Origin: a bacterium
GTDB lineage: Bacteria > UBA8248
Assembly: GCA_965204535.1 (NCBI GenBank)
Contig: CBDBEV010000001.1
Location: 2,272,001-2,336,000, forward strand
DNA: 64,000 bases
Direction of reading: 5' to 3'
Below are positions 39,129 through 47,035 of this stretch, piece after piece. Every line of letters begins with the position of its first letter. Within the stretch, counting starts at the first letter, position 1. The notes beneath the pieces were generated by a model, which had not been told where the DNA came from, did no database searches, and worked only from the letters and a program-made list of their open reading frames with translations. Position numbers and translations under genes: made by a program.

Positions 39129-39515
39129 CTAGCCGGGGCGCAGGACGCTCCTGGCCTTCTCCCCTTCGGGCGTCACGGCGAGCACCTCGAGACTCGGCCG
39201 CGCGGGCGACCTCGTGAGCAGGAGCTCCACGGGCTCGTCGAGCGCCATGATCTCGTGCACCTCGCCGGGGCGGAACTGCACCAGATCGCCGGGCGCGGCT
39301 TCCAGTATCTCCCCCTCCACGGCCAACCGCAGCCCGCCCTTCAAGAGATAAAGGAACTGCTCGTCATGGTGGTAATGGGGGTTGGAGTGGCCCCCCGCCT
39401 CCATGCGGAAATAACCGATGGTGGTATGGGCGCCGTCGACCCAGGCGGCGTCTGCGGTGACGTAGTCGGCGGCTTTCCCCTGGTTCTGCGCGGCGAGATT
39501 TCTGTAGATCGGCAT
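39129..39515 (-). CDS. Cupin-domain protein
   Basis: HYHHDEQFLYLLKG and PGDLVQFRPGEVH cupin motifs; AGGAG RBS. Confidence 0.85.
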   Translation of the reverse strand: MPIYRNLAAQNQGKAADYVTADAAWVDGAHTTIGYFRMEAGGHSNPHYHHDEQFLYLLKGGLRLAVEGEILEAAPGDLVQFRPGEVHEIMALDEPVELLLTRSPARPSLEVLAVTPEGEKARSVLRPG

Positions 39516-39666: not shown

Positions 39667-40701
39667 GTGAGCGTCCAGCCCGTGGATGAGTTCGAGTATT
39701 TCTTCGACAAGCCCTGGTCGGACGGCCTGCCGGTCATCCCCCCGACGGAAGAGCGCCTGGGCCTCATGCTGGCGGGAACGAGGCGCGACCCGGACGAAGT
39801 CCTGGGCGACGTGCCCCCGCTTCTGGCGCAGGCGGACGTTCGGACGGTCGCCGCTCATGCCGTCATGGCCGGGTGCAAGCCGGCGTATATGCCCGTCCTC
39901 ATCGGGGCCGTGGAGGCGATTCTGGAGGAAAAGTTCAACGTGGGCGGCGTGCAGGCGACGCTCTCCTGCGCGGCGCCTCTGCTGATCGTGAACGGCCCTT
40001 ACGCGGGGGAAATCGGCTTACACGGCGGGCTCGGCTGTTTCGGCCCCGGGAACCGCGCCAACGCGACGATCGGGCGCGCCATCAGGCTTTTGCTCCTGAA
40101 CATCGGCGGCGGAATACCGGGCATCACCTCGATGAGCACGTTCTCTCAGCCGGGGCGGTTCACGTACTGCATCGCCGAGAATGAAGCGGAAAGCCCCTGG
40201 GAGTCTCTCGCGCAGACGCAGGGTTTCGATGCGGGGGAGGATGTCGTCACCGCCGTGCACGTGGAAGGCCCCGTCATGTCCTGGGACGACGTGAGCGACG
40301 ACCCCGAGCGCATGCTCCCCTCCATCGCGGACACCATGTCGCATCTGGGTTCGTGGAATTGCTGGGCCAGCACGGATCTCGTGGTGGCGATGAGTCCGCA
40401 GCAGGCCGCGATTTGCGCCAAAAAGGGGTATTCAAAGGCGGATGTCCATGGGCGGCTTTGCGAAATCGCAGGCCGCACGGTGGGCGAACTCAAGACGGGG
40501 GGTCATTACCGGGAGAACCGCATCAGAGACTTCCCGTTCCCCGTCAATCTGGATGATGACGATGCGTTCGTTCCGACGATCAAAGAGGCCCGAAGACTGC
40601 TCCTGATCGTGGCGGGCGGGGTTCCGGGGCCGATTACGGCCGTGATGCACGGCTGGAACGGGAGCAGCCGTTCGGTATCGCGCGGGTTTGAATCGTCATA
40701 A
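39667..40701 (+). CDS. Uncharacterised 'WSDGLPV' family protein, paralog 1 (putative UGSC partner)
   Basis: GGAGG RBS; WSDGLPVIPPTEER, AVMAGCKP, NGPY and GCFGPGNRANATIGRA motifs shared with the three downstream paralogs. Confidence 0.8.
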   Translation: MSVQPVDEFEYFFDKPWSDGLPVIPPTEERLGLMLAGTRRDPDEVLGDVPPLLAQADVRTVAAHAVMAGCKPAYMPVLIGAVEAILEEKFNVGGVQATLSCAAPLLIVNGPYAGEIGLHGGLGCFGPGNRANATIGRAIRLLLLNIGGGIPGITSMSTFSQPGRFTYCIAENEAESPWESLAQTQGFDAGEDVVTAVHVEGPVMSWDDVSDDPERMLPSIADTMSHLGSWNCWASTDLVVAMSPQQAAICAKKGYSKADVHGRLCEIAGRTVGELKTGGHYRENRIRDFPFPVNLDDDDAFVPTIKEARRLLLIVAGGVPGPITAVMHGWNGSSRSVSRGFESS

Positions 40702-40729
40702 GACCCATATATCGTCATAAGACCCATAT
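40692..40729 (+). repeat. 19-bp tandem direct repeat
   Basis: ATCGTCATAAGACCCATAT twice, spanning the stop codon of paralog 1. Confidence 0.9.
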
Positions 40730-40743
40730 ATAGCAAGGGGTGA

Positions 40744-41778
40744 ATGGTTGTGAACGACCCTCAAGATGAATTCGAGTTTTTCCTGGAAAAACCCTGGTCG
40801 GACGGCCTGCCCGTCGTCACCCCGACCGAAGAGCGCATCGAGCGCATGCTCTCGGGCACGAAGAGAAGCCCTGCCGAGGTCATCGGCAGCGTTCCTCCCG
40901 CCATGGGGGAGGCCACGGTCCACAGCGTGGCGGTGCATGCGGTCATGGCCGGGTGCAAGCCGGAATACCTGCCGGTCGTACTCGGCGCCGCCTCCCTCAT
41001 GCTTCGCGATGAATTCAACATGAACGGCGTGCAGGGCACGATGCACGGCGTGGCGCCCCTGATGATCGTGAACGGCCCGTATTCCGGGGAAATCGGCATT
41101 CACGGGGGCAATGGCTGTTTTGGCCCCGGCTTCAGGGCCAACGCCTCCATCGGCCGCGCGATACGCCTGATTCTGATGAACCTGGGCGGGGGCATCCCGG
41201 GCGTTTCTTCCATGACGATTTTCGGCACGCCGCTGCGCTATACCGCGTGCGTCACGGAGAACCTCCAGTTTCACCCCTGGGAGACGCTCGCTGAATCGAG
41301 AGGATACGGGGCGGAGGAGAACGTGATCACCATGGCCATGGTGGAAAGCCCGCGCCTGACCTTCGATGACGTCAGCGAGGAGCCCGAGAGGCTGCTCCGG
41401 GGAATCGCCGATGCGATGACGGGTCTGGGTTCCTGGAACATGCACGCGCCCAGAACCGACATGGTCGTCGCCATGAATCCCCAGCATGCGAAGATTTGCT
41501 CCGAGGGCGGCCTTGCGCGCGCGGACGTGCACCGGCGGCTGTGTGAATTGGCCGGCCACAAGGTGAAGGACCTGAAACAAGGCGGAAACTGGCGTCGTGA
41601 GCGCGCGCTGGCGATGTATATCCACACGGATCCGGATGATGATGAATTTTTCGTTCCCGTCATCAAGGATCCCCGTGACCTCCATTTGATCGTCGCGGGC
41701 GGCTGGGGGTCGGGCAGTGCGGTCTGTCATGGATGGAGCGGCGGCAGCCGCGCCGTTCATGGCGTGTATGAAGTGTAA
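40744..41778 (+). CDS. Uncharacterised 'WSDGLPV' family protein, paralog 2
   Basis: Same motifs as paralog 1; variable segment GVQGTMHG. Confidence 0.8.
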   Translation: MVVNDPQDEFEFFLEKPWSDGLPVVTPTEERIERMLSGTKRSPAEVIGSVPPAMGEATVHSVAVHAVMAGCKPEYLPVVLGAASLMLRDEFNMNGVQGTMHGVAPLMIVNGPYSGEIGIHGGNGCFGPGFRANASIGRAIRLILMNLGGGIPGVSSMTIFGTPLRYTACVTENLQFHPWETLAESRGYGAEENVITMAMVESPRLTFDDVSEEPERLLRGIADAMTGLGSWNMHAPRTDMVVAMNPQHAKICSEGGLARADVHRRLCELAGHKVKDLKQGGNWRRERALAMYIHTDPDDDEFFVPVIKDPRDLHLIVAGGWGSGSAVCHGWSGGSRAVHGVYEV

Positions 41779-41819
41779 TGCCGGATTTCCCGCATTCCGT
41801 CTGGTAAAGTCATTTTCCA

Positions 41820-42836
41820 ATGGATGAATTCGAGTTTTTCTTTCAAAAACCCTGGTCGGACGGCCTGCCGGTAATTCCCCCTACAGAAGAACGAATGGCC
41901 GCCATGCTTTCGGGTACCAGACTTGAAGCCTCGGAAATCATCGGTTTGGTGCCGCCCCTCATGGGGGAGGCCGGCGTGGAGGCGATTGCCGCGCACGCCG
42001 TGATGGCGGGGTGTGAACCTTCGTTTTTGCCCCTTGTTATTGCAGGGCTTAGAGCGCTTCTTGCGCCGAAACTCAACTTGAACGGCGTACAGGGCACCAT
42101 GCACAGCGCGGCCCCTTTGATCATCGTGAATGGGCCGTATGCGAAAAAAATCGGCCTGCACGGCGGCACAGGGTGCTTCGGGCCGGGTTTTCGGGCGAAT
42201 GCGACGATTGGACGCGCCATCAGGCTAATACTCATGAACCTGGGCGGGGGTGTGCCGGTTTCCGCCTCGATGAGCACGTTCGGCTCGCCTGCCAGATATA
42301 CGTTTTGCATCGCCGAGAATGAAGCAGAAAGCCCCTGGGAGCCATTGTCCGTCACGAGGGGATTTCAGCAGGATGACGATGTCGTTACCGCCGTGATGAC
42401 CGAAGCGCCTCAAGGCTATATCGACGATTACTCAAAAGAGCCGGAATCTTTTTTCGTGGGTCTGGCGGATAAAATATCCACCTTGGGTTCGCTGAATATA
42501 TGGCTGAAAACCCAGGTAGTCGTTGCTTTGGGTCCCGATCATGCGCGCATGTGCGCGGACGCGGGTCTGGATAAAAAAGATGTTCATCAGAGAATTATGG
42601 AACTCGCGCGCAGGCCCTTGGGAGAGTTAAAAAAATCGGGTTATTGGCGTGAGGAGATGATAGCCAAGTGGCCATTTGACGTGGACCTGCAAGATGATTC
42701 GTATCTGGTTCCGGCGATTAAGGATGAGGACGATCTGATTCTTCTCGTCGCAGGGGGTACGCCCGGCCCGGTGACTGCCGTCATGCCCGGCTGGGTGGAT
42801 GGCAGTGAGGCGGTCTCGACGGATTATCAACCATAA
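41820..42836 (+). CDS. Uncharacterised 'WSDGLPV' family protein, paralog 3
   Basis: Same motifs as paralog 1; variable segment GVQGTMHS. Confidence 0.8.
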   Translation: MDEFEFFFQKPWSDGLPVIPPTEERMAAMLSGTRLEASEIIGLVPPLMGEAGVEAIAAHAVMAGCEPSFLPLVIAGLRALLAPKLNLNGVQGTMHSAAPLIIVNGPYAKKIGLHGGTGCFGPGFRANATIGRAIRLILMNLGGGVPVSASMSTFGSPARYTFCIAENEAESPWEPLSVTRGFQQDDDVVTAVMTEAPQGYIDDYSKEPESFFVGLADKISTLGSLNIWLKTQVVVALGPDHARMCADAGLDKKDVHQRIMELARRPLGELKKSGYWREEMIAKWPFDVDLQDDSYLVPAIKDEDDLILLVAGGTPGPVTAVMPGWVDGSEAVSTDYQP

Positions 42837-42871
42837 GTCTTTCTGTCGGCTTTGCTTGTGAGGATAAGCGC

Positions 42872-43891
42872 ATGGATGAGTTTGAGTTTTTCTTTGATAA
42901 AGAATGGTCGGACGGCCTGCCTGTCGTGACGCCCACGGAAGAGAGAATGGGCTTGATGCTCACAGGAACGACCAGGGAACCGGGCGAAGTGCTTGGCCAA
43001 GTGGCTCCGGCGGGCGGGGACCTCAGCATTCAAAGCGTGGCGGCCCATGCCGTGATGGCGGGTTGTAAGCCCGAATATATGCCGGTTTTGATAGCTGGGC
43101 TGGAGGCGCTTCTCGATGAGCGTTTCAACGTGAATCTGATTCAGGCCACAACGAGCGCGGGCGCTCCTTTTTTGTTGGTCAATGGCCCTTACGCCAGGGA
43201 AATCGGGCTGCACGGCGGTGTGGGCTGTATGGGTCCCGGTTTTCGCGCGAATTTGACCATTGGCCGCGCCGTGAGGCTCATCATGATGAACGTGGGCGGT
43301 GGTATTCCCGGAATCACATGTCTCGGCGGTTTTGGCGGTCCCTGGCGAAATACTTATTGCATCGTGGAGAACGAGGAGGAATCACCCTGGGAGTCGTATG
43401 CGGAGTCCAAAGGGTTTTCAAAAAGCGATAACGTGGTGACCATGATTCCTCTCGAAGGCCCAGTCCAGGTATGGGACGATGCGAGCCTCACCCCTGACCG
43501 GCTTCTTACGACGGTGGCCGATATGATGTCCGCCTTGGGTGGGCCCAATATGTATCGCCAAGCGGATATGGCGGTTGTCCTGGGCGCGCAGCATGCGCAT
43601 CTGTGCGCCGACGCCGGGCTGACCCGCAGCGATGTGCATCAACAATTATTGGCAATGGGCGGACGCACCATCGGGGATATAAAGCGCGGCGGCATATGGC
43701 GGGGCGAGAAAGGCGCGGATCGATGGCCGTTTCCCGTGGATGTGCATGATGATGATTTTTTCGTGCCCGCCGTCGGAGATCCCGACGATCTTCATTTAAT
43801 CGTCGCGGGGAGCAGGGGTTCACCCTCCAGCATGGTCATGCACGGAATTACGGTGGCGTGTCGGACCGTGACAAAAAAATTTAACTTGTAA
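42872..43891 (+). CDS. Uncharacterised 'WSDGLPV' family protein, paralog 4
   Basis: Same motifs as paralog 1; variable segment LIQATTSA. Confidence 0.8.
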   Translation: MDEFEFFFDKEWSDGLPVVTPTEERMGLMLTGTTREPGEVLGQVAPAGGDLSIQSVAAHAVMAGCKPEYMPVLIAGLEALLDERFNVNLIQATTSAGAPFLLVNGPYAREIGLHGGVGCMGPGFRANLTIGRAVRLIMMNVGGGIPGITCLGGFGGPWRNTYCIVENEEESPWESYAESKGFSKSDNVVTMIPLEGPVQVWDDASLTPDRLLTTVADMMSALGGPNMYRQADMAVVLGAQHAHLCADAGLTRSDVHQQLLAMGGRTIGDIKRGGIWRGEKGADRWPFPVDVHDDDFFVPAVGDPDDLHLIVAGSRGSPSSMVMHGITVACRTVTKKFNL

Positions 43892-43998: not shown

Positions 43999-44031
43999 AA
44001 AAAAGCCCCGGCATTTTGCCGGGGCTTTTTT
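43999..44031. terminator. Bidirectional intrinsic terminator
   Basis: AAAAAAGCCCCGGCA-TTT-TGCCGGGGCTTTTTT between convergent genes. Confidence 0.9.
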
Positions 44032-44048: not shown

Positions 44049-46310
44049 CTAATGGCCGTTGCTTTTTCCGTTTTTCTTCATGACCGCCCAGCAGACACGT
44101 TCGGGCGTGATGGGCAGGTCGTAGACTTCCGTGCCTATCGCATCGTTTATGGCGAGGGCAACGGCGGCCGGCGCATTGTTGCATGGAGGCTCGCCGACGC
44201 CGCGTGCGCCATATGGCCCCGCGCCCTCTCCACATTCGAGAACAACAGACTCAAACTCGCCAATATCCGATGAAGTGGGGATCAAATACTCGTGAAAGCT
44301 TTGTGATCGACAGTCCCCTTCCACCATGGTGATTTCCTCGTGGAGCGCATATCCGATCCCCATCACCGCGCCGCCTTCAAATTGTCCCTCCACGCTTTGA
44401 GGGTTCAACGCTCGCCCCACGTCATGGGAAGCGACGTGCTTCAAAAGGTTCACTTCACCTGTTTCGATGTCGACTTCCACTTCGCTTGCATGAACACCGA
44501 ATGTGTAGTCCGACCATCCGCCCATGCCGTTCATGTATCGCTCCGGATTTTCATATTCATGTCCTGGCATGTTGTAACCATGCGTGCAATGCAGTGCCTC
44601 ACCCATTTTTTTGGCTTCGCCAGCTGCAGCACCGATGCCAACTCTTCTCTCGGGAGCGGAGGCCACCCATGCCTCCCCGCTTCCCACGCGAATATCCTCT
44701 TCAGCAGCCTCGAGCAACGAAGCGGCGCCTTTGGTCACGGCTTTCCGAACCTCATCTGCGGCAAGTCGAACGGCGTGCCCCGCCATGAGTGTTTGACGGG
44801 AGCCTGCCGTGATTCCTGAGAGCGGTGTTGTGGCGGAATCTGATAGACGGGTGGATACCTGATCGAGCCTGAGCCCCAGGGTTTCAGCCGTGATGCTTTG
44901 AAGCGTAGCGCCCTGGCCGGCGCCTATGTCCGGCGCGCTCACGCGAACTACGGCGCTGCCGTCCGGCTCGAGGTGAACTGCCGCATTCGCGTCGTCATTC
45001 GGCCTTCCGTAGCCGGTGATGTTCGCCGCCGCCGCACGCCCAATGCGTTTCCCTGGGCCTGGTTCTGTGGGTTCGCCCAAGGCCTGAAGCGCACTGTCAA
45101 GGCATCCTTCCAGGTTCGGTTCATAAGGTATTTTCTGTCCGGTCGGCAGTTCCTGGTTTTTCTGGATGAAATTTTTGCGCCTGAATTCGTATTTATCCAT
45201 CCCGATGGCGTCTGCAACCAGGTTCATTTGGGTCTCATATGCGAAGCAAACCTGGTTCGACCCCACACCACGCATCGCGTTGGTGATGGGATTGTTGGTG
45301 AGATAGCCGTGCGCGCGTATTTTAGCGTTGGGCACATCGTAGGGGCCTGCAGCGATGCACATGGCGCCCAGGAGGAATAGATTGGATTTGTACGGATAGG
45401 CTCCAGCGTCACCCACGATATCCGCTTCTACGGCAAGAATTTTCCCGTCCTTGGTCGCTCCTGTTTTGTACCTCATATAGAAAGGATGTTTTTTCGAGGT
45501 GTTTCGGATGCCGTGCTCGCGGCCCAACACCATTATGGCCGGTCTTTGCGTATGCCAGGTGAGTAATGCCAGGTAAGGTTCCACGGTCAGCATGCCCTTG
45601 GCGCCGAATCCGCCGCCGACATATGTGCCGAGGTGGCGGACGCGGCTATGCGAGATTCCTAAAATCGCCGCAATGGCGCGATAGTATTCAATTAGCTGTG
45701 TGCCGACGCGGATGGTGATGACGCCGTCTTCCTCCATCCATGAAGTACCGGAAGCGGGTTCCAGGAAGGCGTGTTCAGCGAGTTGCGTGGTATATGTTTT
45801 CTCAATCACCACGTCGGCTTCGTCAAACGCTCTTTTTATGTCTCCACGTGTAGCTTCAAAGTCACACGCTTGTCGCTTCTCGGCGTTAGTTTCATCGTGA
45901 CGCGTTGTCCACACGCCCTCTTCCGACTCGATTTCCAATTCGATCGCAGCTATCGCGGCATCAAGCGCTTCTCTGTTTTCGGCGCCTACGATGGCGAGGG
46001 CATCTCCAGTAAATTCGATCTTATCTTCCACCAGCACCGGCTGATGGGGCAGGCCCGGCGTCCCGGAGCCGAATCGCGCGTTTGTGCCTGGAATGTCCTT
46101 TGCGGTCAGAATGGCGGCTACGCCTGGAATTTTTTCGGCTTTAGAAGTGTCGAGTTTTTTGAGGCGGCCTACGGGGACGGGCGTAAACAAGACGCCGCAC
46201 TGCAAAGCGCCTGCGGGGATCGCGTCTTCTCCGTAGGGCATAGAGCCATCTGCTTTCGGAATGGCGTCGTATCGAACATTCGACTTGCCGATGATATCGT
46301 AATCGGCCAT
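44049..46310 (-). CDS. Xanthine dehydrogenase family molybdopterin-binding large subunit
   Basis: EHAFLEP, VGGGFGAK, DAGAY, AMRGVG, DIGAGQ, DVGRALNP and GARGVGEPP motifs; AAGGAG RBS before ATG 46310. Confidence 0.92.
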   Translation of the reverse strand: MADYDIIGKSNVRYDAIPKADGSMPYGEDAIPAGALQCGVLFTPVPVGRLKKLDTSKAEKIPGVAAILTAKDIPGTNARFGSGTPGLPHQPVLVEDKIEFTGDALAIVGAENREALDAAIAAIELEIESEEGVWTTRHDETNAEKRQACDFEATRGDIKRAFDEADVVIEKTYTTQLAEHAFLEPASGTSWMEEDGVITIRVGTQLIEYYRAIAAILGISHSRVRHLGTYVGGGFGAKGMLTVEPYLALLTWHTQRPAIMVLGREHGIRNTSKKHPFYMRYKTGATKDGKILAVEADIVGDAGAYPYKSNLFLLGAMCIAAGPYDVPNAKIRAHGYLTNNPITNAMRGVGSNQVCFAYETQMNLVADAIGMDKYEFRRKNFIQKNQELPTGQKIPYEPNLEGCLDSALQALGEPTEPGPGKRIGRAAAANITGYGRPNDDANAAVHLEPDGSAVVRVSAPDIGAGQGATLQSITAETLGLRLDQVSTRLSDSATTPLSGITAGSRQTLMAGHAVRLAADEVRKAVTKGAASLLEAAEEDIRVGSGEAWVASAPERRVGIGAAAGEAKKMGEALHCTHGYNMPGHEYENPERYMNGMGGWSDYTFGVHASEVEVDIETGEVNLLKHVASHDVGRALNPQSVEGQFEGGAVMGIGYALHEEITMVEGDCRSQSFHEYLIPTSSDIGEFESVVLECGEGAGPYGARGVGEPPCNNAPAAVALAINDAIGTEVYDLPITPERVCWAVMKKNGKSNGH

Positions 46311-46504
46311 TTGTCTGCTCCTTAAGGTAAGAGGTTTTCCGTAAATTAGACTTGATTTTGCCAAAATTCGGCGAATCTGAGAAGCGGAAAAAACATCATT
46401 CGCATTTTCATCGGGAAATCGAATGGGCTGATATCGTAGACAATGAATGAATTGCGGGATATGATTTAGTCTCGGTTGAGTTCACATATCATTTGGAGAA
46501 AACC

Positions 46505-47035
46505 ATGGCGAACGGAATGGGATTCATCGATCCGACGGCGGGAGGATCGGCCGCGCGAATCGAGCTTGCGCAACGGCCCGGCGATCTTTCGGGAAAGGTG
46601 GTGGGGCTCCTCGATAACACCAAGGAACAAGCGGATATCATTTTGGAAACCTTGGGCAATGCACTTCGTGAGCAATACGACGTGGCCAGAGTCATTTCGA
46701 GGCGAAAAGAGCATTACTCGAAGCCTGCCACGGATGAAATGATCGAAGAAATGGCCCAAGAGGTGGATGTGGCGATAGCCGCATTGGGAGGCTGAGGCTC
46801 CTGCACGTTGTGCAGTGTGCACGACACGGTTGAATTTGAAAAACGGGGCATTCCTTCAACGACCATCATCACCGAAGCCTTCAAGAACGCGGCGGACTTT
46901 CAATTCCGTGGCAAGGGCATGGAAGGGCACCCTTATATTGAGTTGCCTCACCCGGTTAGCAATCTACAGCCTGATGAAATGAGAGACACGACGCTCAAGT
47001 TTGTTGAAGAAGTGGCCAGCCATCTGAAAAGCTGA
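46505..47035 (+). CDS. UGSC-motif selenoprotein (Sec encoded by TGA 46793-46795), 176 aa
   Basis: ORFs 46493-46795 and 46808-47035 are in the same frame. Read-through gives AIAALGG-U-GSCTLCSVHDTVEFEKRGIP (UxxC), and a SECIS-like hairpin follows. Confidence 0.88.
46796..46830 (+). promoter_or_regulatory. Putative bacterial SECIS element (UGSC gene)
   Basis: Stem GTTGTGC (46807-46813) / GCACGAC (46819-46825), loop AGTGT, separated from the UGA by 11 nt. A competing hairpin CTGCAC-GTT-GTGCAG is possible. Confidence 0.55.

What the first reader, a model, noticed from the sequence alone, without database searches (positions are those of the whole stretch)
39667..43891. Four-copy tandem array of a divergent uncharacterised family with localised variable segments
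All four share DEFE(Y/F)F..K.WSDGLPV..PTEER, AVMAGC.P, NGPY, HGG.GC.GPG.RAN, IGRA.RL, C..EN....PWE and L.VAG, including three invariant Cys. They differ at discrete loops: QATLSC/QGTMHG/QGTMHS/QATTSA and LGSWNCW/LGSWNMH/LGSLNIW/LGGPNMY. All frames are intact, short spacers suggest one operon, and a terminator follows. Inference: these are maintained specificity variants or subunits of a hetero-oligomer rather than a recent amplification.
Basis: partly seen in the sequence, partly recalled or inferred. Interest (0 to 1): 0.75.

Follow-up and report, generated by a model that had tools for sequence, protein, structure and literature searches.

The report
Four partner subunits, one selenoprotein
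Four neighbouring genes are old, conserved copies of an unnamed protein family that travels with the function-unknown UGSC selenoprotein, and they likely act as interchangeable substrate-binding subunits that share one selenium-carrying partner, which would give a ready-made panel for finding out what this abundant aquatic enzyme does.

Summary
The array is real: four intact genes, 50-57% identical, tandem in 22 of 22 other genomes of the genus searched (order checked in 18), each under purifying selection (dN/dS 0.07-0.12). It is neither a mis-assembly nor a recent amplification. The family has no Pfam, NCBIfam or PDB match; it is the 'Unknown_1' domain noted in 2008 as fused to the UGSC selenoprotein. 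The cognate UGSC gene lies 2.6 kb downstream; its 68-75% identical orthologues sit directly beside the same subfamily in Betaproteobacteria and Chloroflexota. UGSC is a distant relative of the selenocysteine domain of glycine/betaine reductase GrdB, but the large subunit is unrelated to GrdE. Paralogue-specific residues cluster in four loops. Copy number and mix vary across lineages (1 to 4 or more), and one copy plus one UGSC suffices in a Chloroflexota genome, which favours specificity variants over a fixed hetero-oligomer. Best reading: substrate-binding subunits of a selenocysteine-nucleophile reductase that share one UGSC; chemistry and substrate are inferred. The scan reported this family with UGSC on other DNA five times before, once as a similar four-gene array.

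The parts
39667..40701 (+). c1, large UGSC-partner subunit, 344 aa
   Evidence: ORF; AlphaFold2 pLDDT 95.9; orthologues 81-97% in 18 of 18 genomes; dN/dS 0.12
40744..41778 (+). c2, large subunit, 344 aa; the type also found in Chloroflexota, Betaproteobacteria and Tectomicrobia
   Evidence: dN/dS 0.08; clade 100/100
41820..42836 (+). c3, large subunit, 338 aa; type seen only in this genus among the rows sampled
   Evidence: (dN/dS 0.09)
42872..43891 (+). c4, large subunit, 339 aa; type also found in Tectomicrobia, other Nitrospinota and Betaproteobacteria
   Evidence: dN/dS 0.07; clade 100/100
39931..39981 (+). Paralogue-specific segment 1 (c1 residues 89-105, around invariant N91, Q96, T98)
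40114..40161 (+).
40333..40410 (+). Paralogue-specific segment 3 (c1 residues 223-248, around L227, G228, N231)
40612..40674 (+).
44000..44030 (.). Terminator-like hairpin with A-tract before and U-tract after, between c4 and the convergent XDH-family gene
44049..46364 (-). Xanthine-dehydrogenase-family molybdopterin subunit; conserved neighbour in the genus and in Nitrospinota/Tectomicrobia loci, not in the Betaproteobacteria or Chloroflexota loci
46505..47035 (+). Cognate UGSC selenoprotein, 176 aa, motif U97-G-S-C100-T-L-C103, in-frame TGA at 46793-46795
   Evidence: PF24696, 175 bits; NF041046, 150 bits, cut-off 125
46807..46825 (+). Candidate SECIS hairpin just after the TGA
   Evidence: identical at nucleotide level in 40 of 42 loci with the motif; folds as a short stem, energy not above shuffles (z -0.56)
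39129..39515 (-). Divergent cupin gene, conserved upstream neighbour in the genus and in Nitrospinota/Tectomicrobia loci

Best explanation
The four genes are anciently duplicated, selectively maintained members of the UGSC-partner family, and they likely serve as alternative substrate-binding large subunits of a two-component selenoenzyme whose one shared small subunit is likely the UGSC selenoprotein encoded 2.6 kb downstream. Shown: age, selection, family identity, linkage to this UGSC clade, UGSC's distant kinship to the Sec domain of GrdB/PrdB, and clustering of fixed differences in four loops. Inferred: the large subunit binds and polarises a small organic substrate in a pocket lined by those loops; Sec97 of UGSC attacks a carbon-heteroatom bond as in glycine/betaine/proline reductases; Cys100/Cys103 release the product; a thioredoxin-type chain re-reduces UGSC. 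Guess for the substrate class: compounds with an already polarised bond, such as quaternary ammonium or sulfonium osmolytes, since no GrdE-type pyruvoyl subunit is involved and this clade has a fixed Asp-Asp pair (207-208) and several aromatic residues in the loops. Odds: shared-UGSC, variant-subunit architecture about 0.7; Sec-nucleophile reductive chemistry about 0.5; onium substrates about 0.2.
For: Array tandem in 22 of 22 other congeneric genomes, order and downstream UGSC in 18 of 18 examined. dN/dS 0.07-0.12, no internal stops in 76 of 76 genes. c1-c4 as one clade rejected, p-AU 1e-10; group named after a first tree was seen. 73 of 344 columns are fixed within and different between paralogues; five 12-column windows hold 7 or more, reached in 0 of 5000 shuffles. 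Loop signatures persist across phyla. Family matches Unknown_1 of PMC2398784 Fig. S1A. 41 of 66 long representatives scanned carry a UGSC piece; 5 of 66 carry AhpC/redoxin, FTR-beta or TrxR-like domains. In this genome 7 of 8 UGSC genes abut distant family members and the eighth is the window's; the seven close-clade genes have no other. A UGSC 68-75% identical to the window's directly abuts this subfamily in 17 of 25 betaproteobacterial-type loci (5 cut short, 3 without) and 2 of 2 Chloroflexota loci. One close-clade gene plus one cognate UGSC in G054 and G055. UGSC hits TIGR01917 GrdB in 33 of 51 alignment members at E up to 1 (best 1e-5), also GrdH, GrdF, PrdB; hhalign probability 72%, E 3e-5, 91 columns, Sec on Sec.
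Against: No activity or substrate is known. The GrdB kinship is weak and covers only the Sec domain; the large subunit has no detectable kinship to GrdE or GrdB (E 0.45, 0.31). No GrdA was found in 4 of 5 genomes that hold the array, so the Grd route for product release is not available there. The supporting fumarate-hydratase comparison is weak (Foldseek E 2e-3, TM 0.32/0.37; VIA Z 3.5-4.2) and a sequence test of the register failed. Neighbouring genes differ between phyla and name no substrate. Stable pairs in Betaproteobacteria and two-domain fusions fit a heterodimer as well. The Chloroflexota genomes are MAGs of unstated completeness.
Confidence: 0.55

Rival explanations
1. The paralogues are obligate subunits of one hetero-oligomer (for example heterodimers or a c1-c4 assembly) that works with UGSC on a single substrate; the variable loops are interface or half-site specialisations.
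For: Tight operon kept in the same order in 18 of 18 genomes. Betaproteobacteria keep two fixed c2 subtypes side by side in either order. Five proteins read in full hold two diverged copies of the domain in one chain. H246 is Gln in c1 and in one copy of several other arrays. The weakly similar fumarate hydratase alpha subunit is a constitutive dimer (bioRxiv 2022.09.03.506457, passages).
Against: Number and mix vary: one (Chloroflexota), c2+c2 or c2+c4 (Betaproteobacteria), three to four of other types (other Nitrospinota). Three more close-clade genes lie alone elsewhere in the genome. No copy shows relaxed selection.
Confidence: 0.2
2. The large subunits are non-redox enzymes or sensors (lyase, hydratase or isomerase, perhaps metal- or Fe-S-dependent, on a class I fumarate-hydratase-like scaffold), and UGSC only activates, repairs or reduces them, or the pair is a general thiol/peroxide redox system.
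For: Foldseek's first eleven ranks are class I fumarate hydratases. Neighbours are often organic-acid catabolic genes and transporters. C70 and C168 are family-wide. Fusions to AhpC/redoxin, FTR-beta and TrxR-like domains.
Against: The positions that line up with the three cluster cysteines carry no conserved Cys. No sequence kinship to PF05681. Near one-to-one pairing of distinct UGSC genes with distinct large genes (8-20 large, 6-18 UGSC per genome in 5 genomes) is more than a general reductant would need. UGSC is GrdB-like rather than thioredoxin-like.
Confidence: 0.2
3. The array is a mis-assembly or a recent, decaying amplification.
For: A G+C step falls inside the array (GC3 0.82 and 0.79 in c1-c2, 0.62 and 0.65 in c3-c4).
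Against: Same array in 22 of 22 other genomes; orthologues 81-99% against paralogues 50-57%; purifying selection and no stops; no sign of gene conversion; the G+C step recurs in some relatives and not in others.
Confidence: 0.01

Closest known systems
UGSC-containing selenoprotein (PF24696, NF041046) and its 'Unknown_1' fusion partner (Zhang and Gladyshev 2008, PMC2398784, Fig. S1A)
   Same: The array proteins carry the Unknown_1 block (AVMAGC.P ... NGP) and the downstream gene passes both UGSC cut-offs.
   Different: The paper notes only a fusion and no function, and suggests a Trx-like fold for UGSC; here the model is a three-layer flavodoxin-like/Rossmann-like domain with GrdB kinship, the parts are separate genes, and one UGSC goes with four to seven large genes instead of one.
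Protein B of glycine/sarcosine/betaine reductase (GrdB/F/H with GrdE/G/I) and D-proline reductase (PrdB with PrdA)
   Same: Homologous Sec-bearing domain with the U-G-x-C-T-x-C motif; two-component layout; several substrate-specific sets per genome (PMC10838667, passages).
   Different: UGSC is 176 aa against about 430 for GrdB and scores far below the cut-offs; the partner shows no kinship to PF09338; no GrdA was found in 4 of 5 genomes with the array; here the paralogues multiply on the non-Sec side.
Class I fumarate hydratase alpha subunit (PF05681; 7XKY, 5L2R)
   Same: Weak full-length fold resemblance with the same order of elements; the paralogue-specific loops appear to fall where the cluster cysteines and substrate residues sit (one VIA alignment ends with model 330 on Cys346 of the Leishmania enzyme).
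   Different: Scores are below significance, there is no sequence kinship, the three cluster cysteines are not conserved, and no beta subunit gene was seen beside the array.

Membership tests
Unknown_1 / UGSC-partner family | Conserved AVMAGC.P ... NGP block with its Cys | tested here: met
   Fig. S1A text compared by eye with the alignment; C70 in 98% of the 100 distant rows
Unknown_1 / UGSC-partner family | Fusion or adjacency to UGSC | tested here: met
   41 of 66 long representatives; 17 of 25 and 2 of 2 loci; UGSC downstream in 18 of 18 congeners
UGSC family (gene 46505-47035) | Score above curated cut-offs of PF24696 and NF041046 | tested here: met
   175 bits against 25; 150 against 125, reading TGA through
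UGSC family (gene 46505-47035) | In-frame TGA read as Sec, with SECIS and tRNA-Sec | tested here: met
   TGA in 42 of 42 loci with the motif, hairpin identical in 40 of 42; tRNA-Sec in the genome; hairpin energy not above shuffles; recoding itself not shown
Glycine/betaine/proline reductase protein B | Sec subunit homologous to the Sec domain of GrdB/PrdB | tested here: met
   Weak but specific: TIGR01917 in 33 of 51 members, best E 1e-5; hhalign 72%, E 3e-5, Sec on Sec
Glycine/betaine/proline reductase protein B | Full-length GrdB/PrdB above family cut-off | tested here: not met
   19 bits against 602 for TIGR01917, 12 against 300 for TIGR04483
Glycine/betaine/proline reductase protein B | Partner is a GrdE/PrdA-type proprotein (PF09338) | tested here: not met
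   No Pfam or NCBIfam hit; hhalign against 23 PF09338 proteins E 0.45
Glycine/betaine/proline reductase protein B | Coupling to GrdA/GrdC | tested here: inconclusive
   GrdA found in 1 of 5 genomes that hold the array, 70 kb region far from it; GrdC not searched; genomes 94-100% complete
Glycine/betaine/proline reductase protein B | Reductive cleavage through a selenoether intermediate | not testable with these tools
   Needs biochemistry
Class I fumarate hydratase alpha | Shared fold | tested here: inconclusive
   Foldseek E 2e-3, TM 0.32/0.37; VIA Z 3.5, rmsd 5.5, 184 aligned; C-terminal half Z 4.2, rmsd 3.4, 90 aligned
Class I fumarate hydratase alpha | Sequence family PF05681 and three conserved cluster cysteines | tested here: not met
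   No hit; hhalign E 0.22; sliding test at chance; no conserved Cys at the corresponding loops
Thioredoxin-fold selenoprotein (suggested for UGSC in 2008) | Thioredoxin fold | tested here: inconclusive
   Model (pLDDT 92.7) matches flavodoxin-like and Rossmann-like domains, Z 9-11 with no clear winner

The most novel reading that the evidence does not exclude
UGSC and its partner form an undescribed, widespread class of selenium-dependent reductases: a minimal GrdB-type selenocysteine domain docks on a large subunit of unassigned fold that replaces the pyruvoyl subunit, and this lineage runs a one-to-many version in which a single Sec module serves four to seven exchangeable substrate-binding subunits, each cleaving a different ammonium or sulfonium osmolyte from its host or from seawater.
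Probability: 0.25. Interest if true: 0.85.

Novelty: new variant of a known kind. Interest (0 to 1): 0.6.

Why it matters
UGSC was among the five most abundant selenoprotein families in the ocean survey of 2008 (255 sequences, 37 samples; PMC2398784) and a 2026 review still lists it without a function (PMC13188914). Its partner family is very large (5791 clusters at 50% identity with E up to 0.001), reaches 8-20 copies per genome in Nitrospinota, Betaproteobacteria and Chloroflexota, and has no Pfam, NCBIfam or PDB entry. The array gives four selected variants with one cognate Sec partner, so one expression experiment can test binding, chemistry and specificity together. The link of UGSC to the GrdB Sec domain gives a concrete chemistry to test.

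Tried and rejected
No hit for the four proteins in Pfam, NCBIfam, PHROGs or PDB sequences. The ESM Atlas returned only unnamed clusters and one UGSC-containing cluster at 0.88. The wide fold search found nothing above Z 5.0 for c1; that does not show a new fold. Kinship of the large subunit to GrdE, GrdB or fumarate hydratase alpha was not found by hhalign; my by-eye register to fumarate hydratase failed a sliding profile test (ranks 12-42 of about 320 for 8 of 8 segments; the full alignment score was only slightly above block shuffles and in another register). No thioredoxin-fold chain was among the listed matches for UGSC. Model coordinates are not returned, so loop and Cys distances were not measured. 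Gene conversion rejected: same-genome codon identity only 2-3 points above cross-genome. Neighbourhood clustering over 38 loci gave no gene other than UGSC common to all lineages. No full-length Cys form of this UGSC clade among the best 120 of 1744 hits. RNA-library contigs of related strains (4 runs, 3 studies) cover pieces of c1-c4 and UGSC, but DNA carry-over was not controlled, so transcription is not shown. The sigma-70 scan found no promoter before c1; its two sites are within chance. The FastTree grouping of c1 with first-position genes of other Nitrospinota (support 86) did not hold in IQ-TREE. Literature: 'UGSC'+'selenoprotein' (9 papers), four UGSC terms (8 papers) and whole-word 'UGSC' (17 papers) gave no title or abstract assigning a function; subscription journals are mostly outside the library.
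Full report
Observation. The four ORFs lie at the stated coordinates, are intact and are 35-42 nt apart. They are 50-57% identical. A strong terminator-like hairpin follows at 44000-44030. Four cysteines are shared by the four copies; in an alignment of 140 homologues only C70 and C168 are kept by the 100 distant rows (98% and 95%), while C124 and C250 belong to the close clade. No Pfam, NCBIfam, PHROGs or PDB sequence matches.

Age and selection. The window lies in a 4.56 Mb genome with a tRNA-Sec; record titles of close relatives say Nitrospinota or Nitrospinaceae. All 18 congeneric genomes of the first search hold the array in the order c1-c2-c3-c4 with orthologues at 81-99%, a cupin upstream and an XDH-family subunit, UGSC, an enoyl-CoA hydratase and an acyl-CoA dehydrogenase downstream; 4 further congeners also show four tandem matches, 22 of 22 in all. 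Nei-Gojobori dN/dS over 19 genomes is 0.12, 0.08, 0.09 and 0.07 for c1-c4 (171, 171, 155 and 162 of 171 pairs kept, dS 0.05-1.5), within the range of the neighbours (0.05-0.18); none of 76 genes has a stop; the four types form four clades. There is no sign of gene conversion. Mis-assembly, recent amplification and relaxed selection are refuted.

Identity of the family. The family is large: 7929 of 7998 scored candidates and 5791 clusters at 50% identity. It matches the 'Unknown_1' domain that Zhang and Gladyshev reported fused to the UGSC selenoprotein (PMC2398784: passages; supplement 1). Of 66 representatives that I picked as longer than 400 aa from the 150 listed, 41 carry a UGSC piece, 3 an AhpC/redoxin domain, 1 a ferredoxin-thioredoxin reductase beta chain and 1 a thioredoxin-reductase-like domain; five read in full hold the domain twice. 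This genome has 15 family genes and 8 UGSC genes, all 8 with an in-frame TGA. Seven UGSC genes abut distant family members. The close clade (c1-c4 and three lone genes) has only the UGSC at 46505-47035. That gene is the cognate partner: UGSCs 68-75% identical to it directly abut c2-type genes in 17 of 25 betaproteobacterial-type loci (5 cut short, 3 without) and 2 of 2 Chloroflexota loci. Its TGA is kept in 42 of 42 loci with the motif and the hairpin behind it is identical in 40 of 42, though its folding energy is not above shuffles.

Variants or hetero-oligomer. 73 of 344 columns are fixed within each paralogue and differ between them; they cluster in segments 89-105, 150-165, 223-248 and 316-336 (five windows with 7 or more of 12; 0 of 5000 shuffles), interleaved with invariant residues and lying in loops or at strand ends of the model. 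The signatures persist across phyla. Trees place c2 with Chloroflexota, betaproteobacterial and Tectomicrobia genes (100/100) and c4 with Tectomicrobia, Nitrospinota and betaproteobacterial genes (100/100), and reject c1-c4 as one clade (p-AU 1e-10; 31 of 122 rows used; group named after the first tree). The mix varies: one c2 with one UGSC in two Chloroflexota MAGs, c2+c2 or c2+c4 in Betaproteobacteria, three or four genes of partly other types in other Nitrospinota. This argues against a fixed four-subunit complex. Against my reading, Betaproteobacteria keep two fixed subtypes as a pair, two-domain fusions exist, and H246 is replaced by Gln in c1 and in one member of several arrays; heterodimers remain possible. 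No complex could be modelled.

Structure. The c1 model is confident (pLDDT 95.9, pTM 0.94) and has no clear match (best Z 5.0-5.1). Foldseek's first eleven ranks are class I fumarate hydratases (best E 2e-3, TM 0.32/0.37), with long but loose VIA alignments (184-190 residues, Z 3.5-3.8). By eye the order of elements agrees, and segments 1, 3 and 4 fall where that enzyme has its three cluster cysteines and substrate residues (residue roles from bioRxiv 2022.09.03.506457, passages); one VIA alignment runs from model 202 to 330 against 221 to 346, ending on the third cluster cysteine. Sequence tests did not support the register and the cysteines are not kept. I treat this as a hint that the loops line a pocket, not as membership.

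Chemistry. The UGSC model (pLDDT 92.7) matches flavodoxin-like and Rossmann-like domains. With the TGA read through, UGSC hits the GrdB, GrdH, GrdF and PrdB models around their Sec (33, 26, 23 and 14 of 51 members at E up to 1; best 1e-5), and a profile comparison with 22 GrdB-type proteins aligns Sec on Sec over 91 columns (probability 72%, E 3e-5); the window's U-G-S-C-T-L-C matches U-G-T-C-T-R-C. In those enzymes Sec attacks a polarised bond to give a selenoether that a cysteine resolves, and many bacteria hold several substrate-specific sets (PMC3091704 and PMC10838667, passages). The large subunit is not GrdE-like and GrdA was not found in 4 of 5 array-bearing genomes. So the system likely works like protein B or proline reductase but is not a member. 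Re-reduction by a thioredoxin-type chain is inferred from the fusions. The onium-substrate guess rests on the clade's fixed D207-D208, on aromatic residues in the loops and on my recollection that betaine reduction needs no Schiff base; it is untested, and neighbours name no substrate.

Novelty. The UGSC fusion has been in print since 2008. Three searches (listings only, except the two papers read as passages) showed no assigned function. The scan noted the family-UGSC link five times on other DNA, once as a four-gene array; I had the same reading on record before that look-up. Verdict: real and conserved, a new variant of a known kind of selenoenzyme with unknown substrate; interest 0.6.

Noticed in passing
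G000:C2:70161-74754 (L159, L180): The genome has a separate GrdA, GrdE-type and GrdB-type locus; its GrdB and those of several relatives read U-G-T-G-T-R-S, lacking both cysteines after Sec.
   Followed up: no
G000:C2:2666124-2666516 and 2200145-2200552: Short open frames (about 175-185 aa) match only positions 215-345 of PF07355 (GrdB) and recur two to three times per genome across the order.
   Followed up: no
L115, L119, L120, L127, L132: The lone close-clade gene (o6 type) is followed by a different XDH-family gene (29% to the window's) on the opposite strand in 5 of the 11 o6 loci, echoing the array's layout.
   Followed up: no
L086-L111 (betaproteobacterial loci): Two fixed c2 subtypes occur as a pair in both gene orders; one has Gln for His246 and a shortened loop.
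   Followed up: partly
P0124, P0129, P0136, P0140, P0152: About 710-aa proteins hold two diverged copies of the family domain in one chain.
   Followed up: partly
window:41800-64000: G+C falls from 0.62-0.72 to about 0.50, starting inside the array and lasting about 40 kb; the step is seen in G002 and G004 but not in G001, G007, G009 or G015.
   Followed up: partly
window:29000-38620: A dispersed intergenic repeat family rich in C and G runs (CCCCCCTTGTCAGGGGGG and companions), many copies, some 96-100% alike over 57-150 nt.
   Followed up: no
window:40694-40732: A tandem duplication of about 19 nt spans the c1 stop codon and the c1-c2 spacer.
   Followed up: no
window:33438-37541 (+): A 1367-aa ORF with Calx-beta and LapA hits that looks like a surface protein with an autotransporter-like end (the last label is from recall).
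   Followed up: no
window:50908-51483 (+): A conserved 191-aa ORF with an H-D-H motif that resembles thiol dioxygenases (recalled); no Pfam or NCBIfam hit.
   Followed up: no
L039 / L134 (G009:C6): A second partial copy of c3-c4 with the XDH gene on a 9.8 kb contig, possibly a strain duplicate.
   Followed up: no
L080:6821-7845: The fourth array gene appears split across two frames.
   Followed up: no
G000:C2:1791766-1793352 (L062): One UGSC is fused in frame, through its TGA, to a family domain and followed by a second family gene.
   Followed up: no
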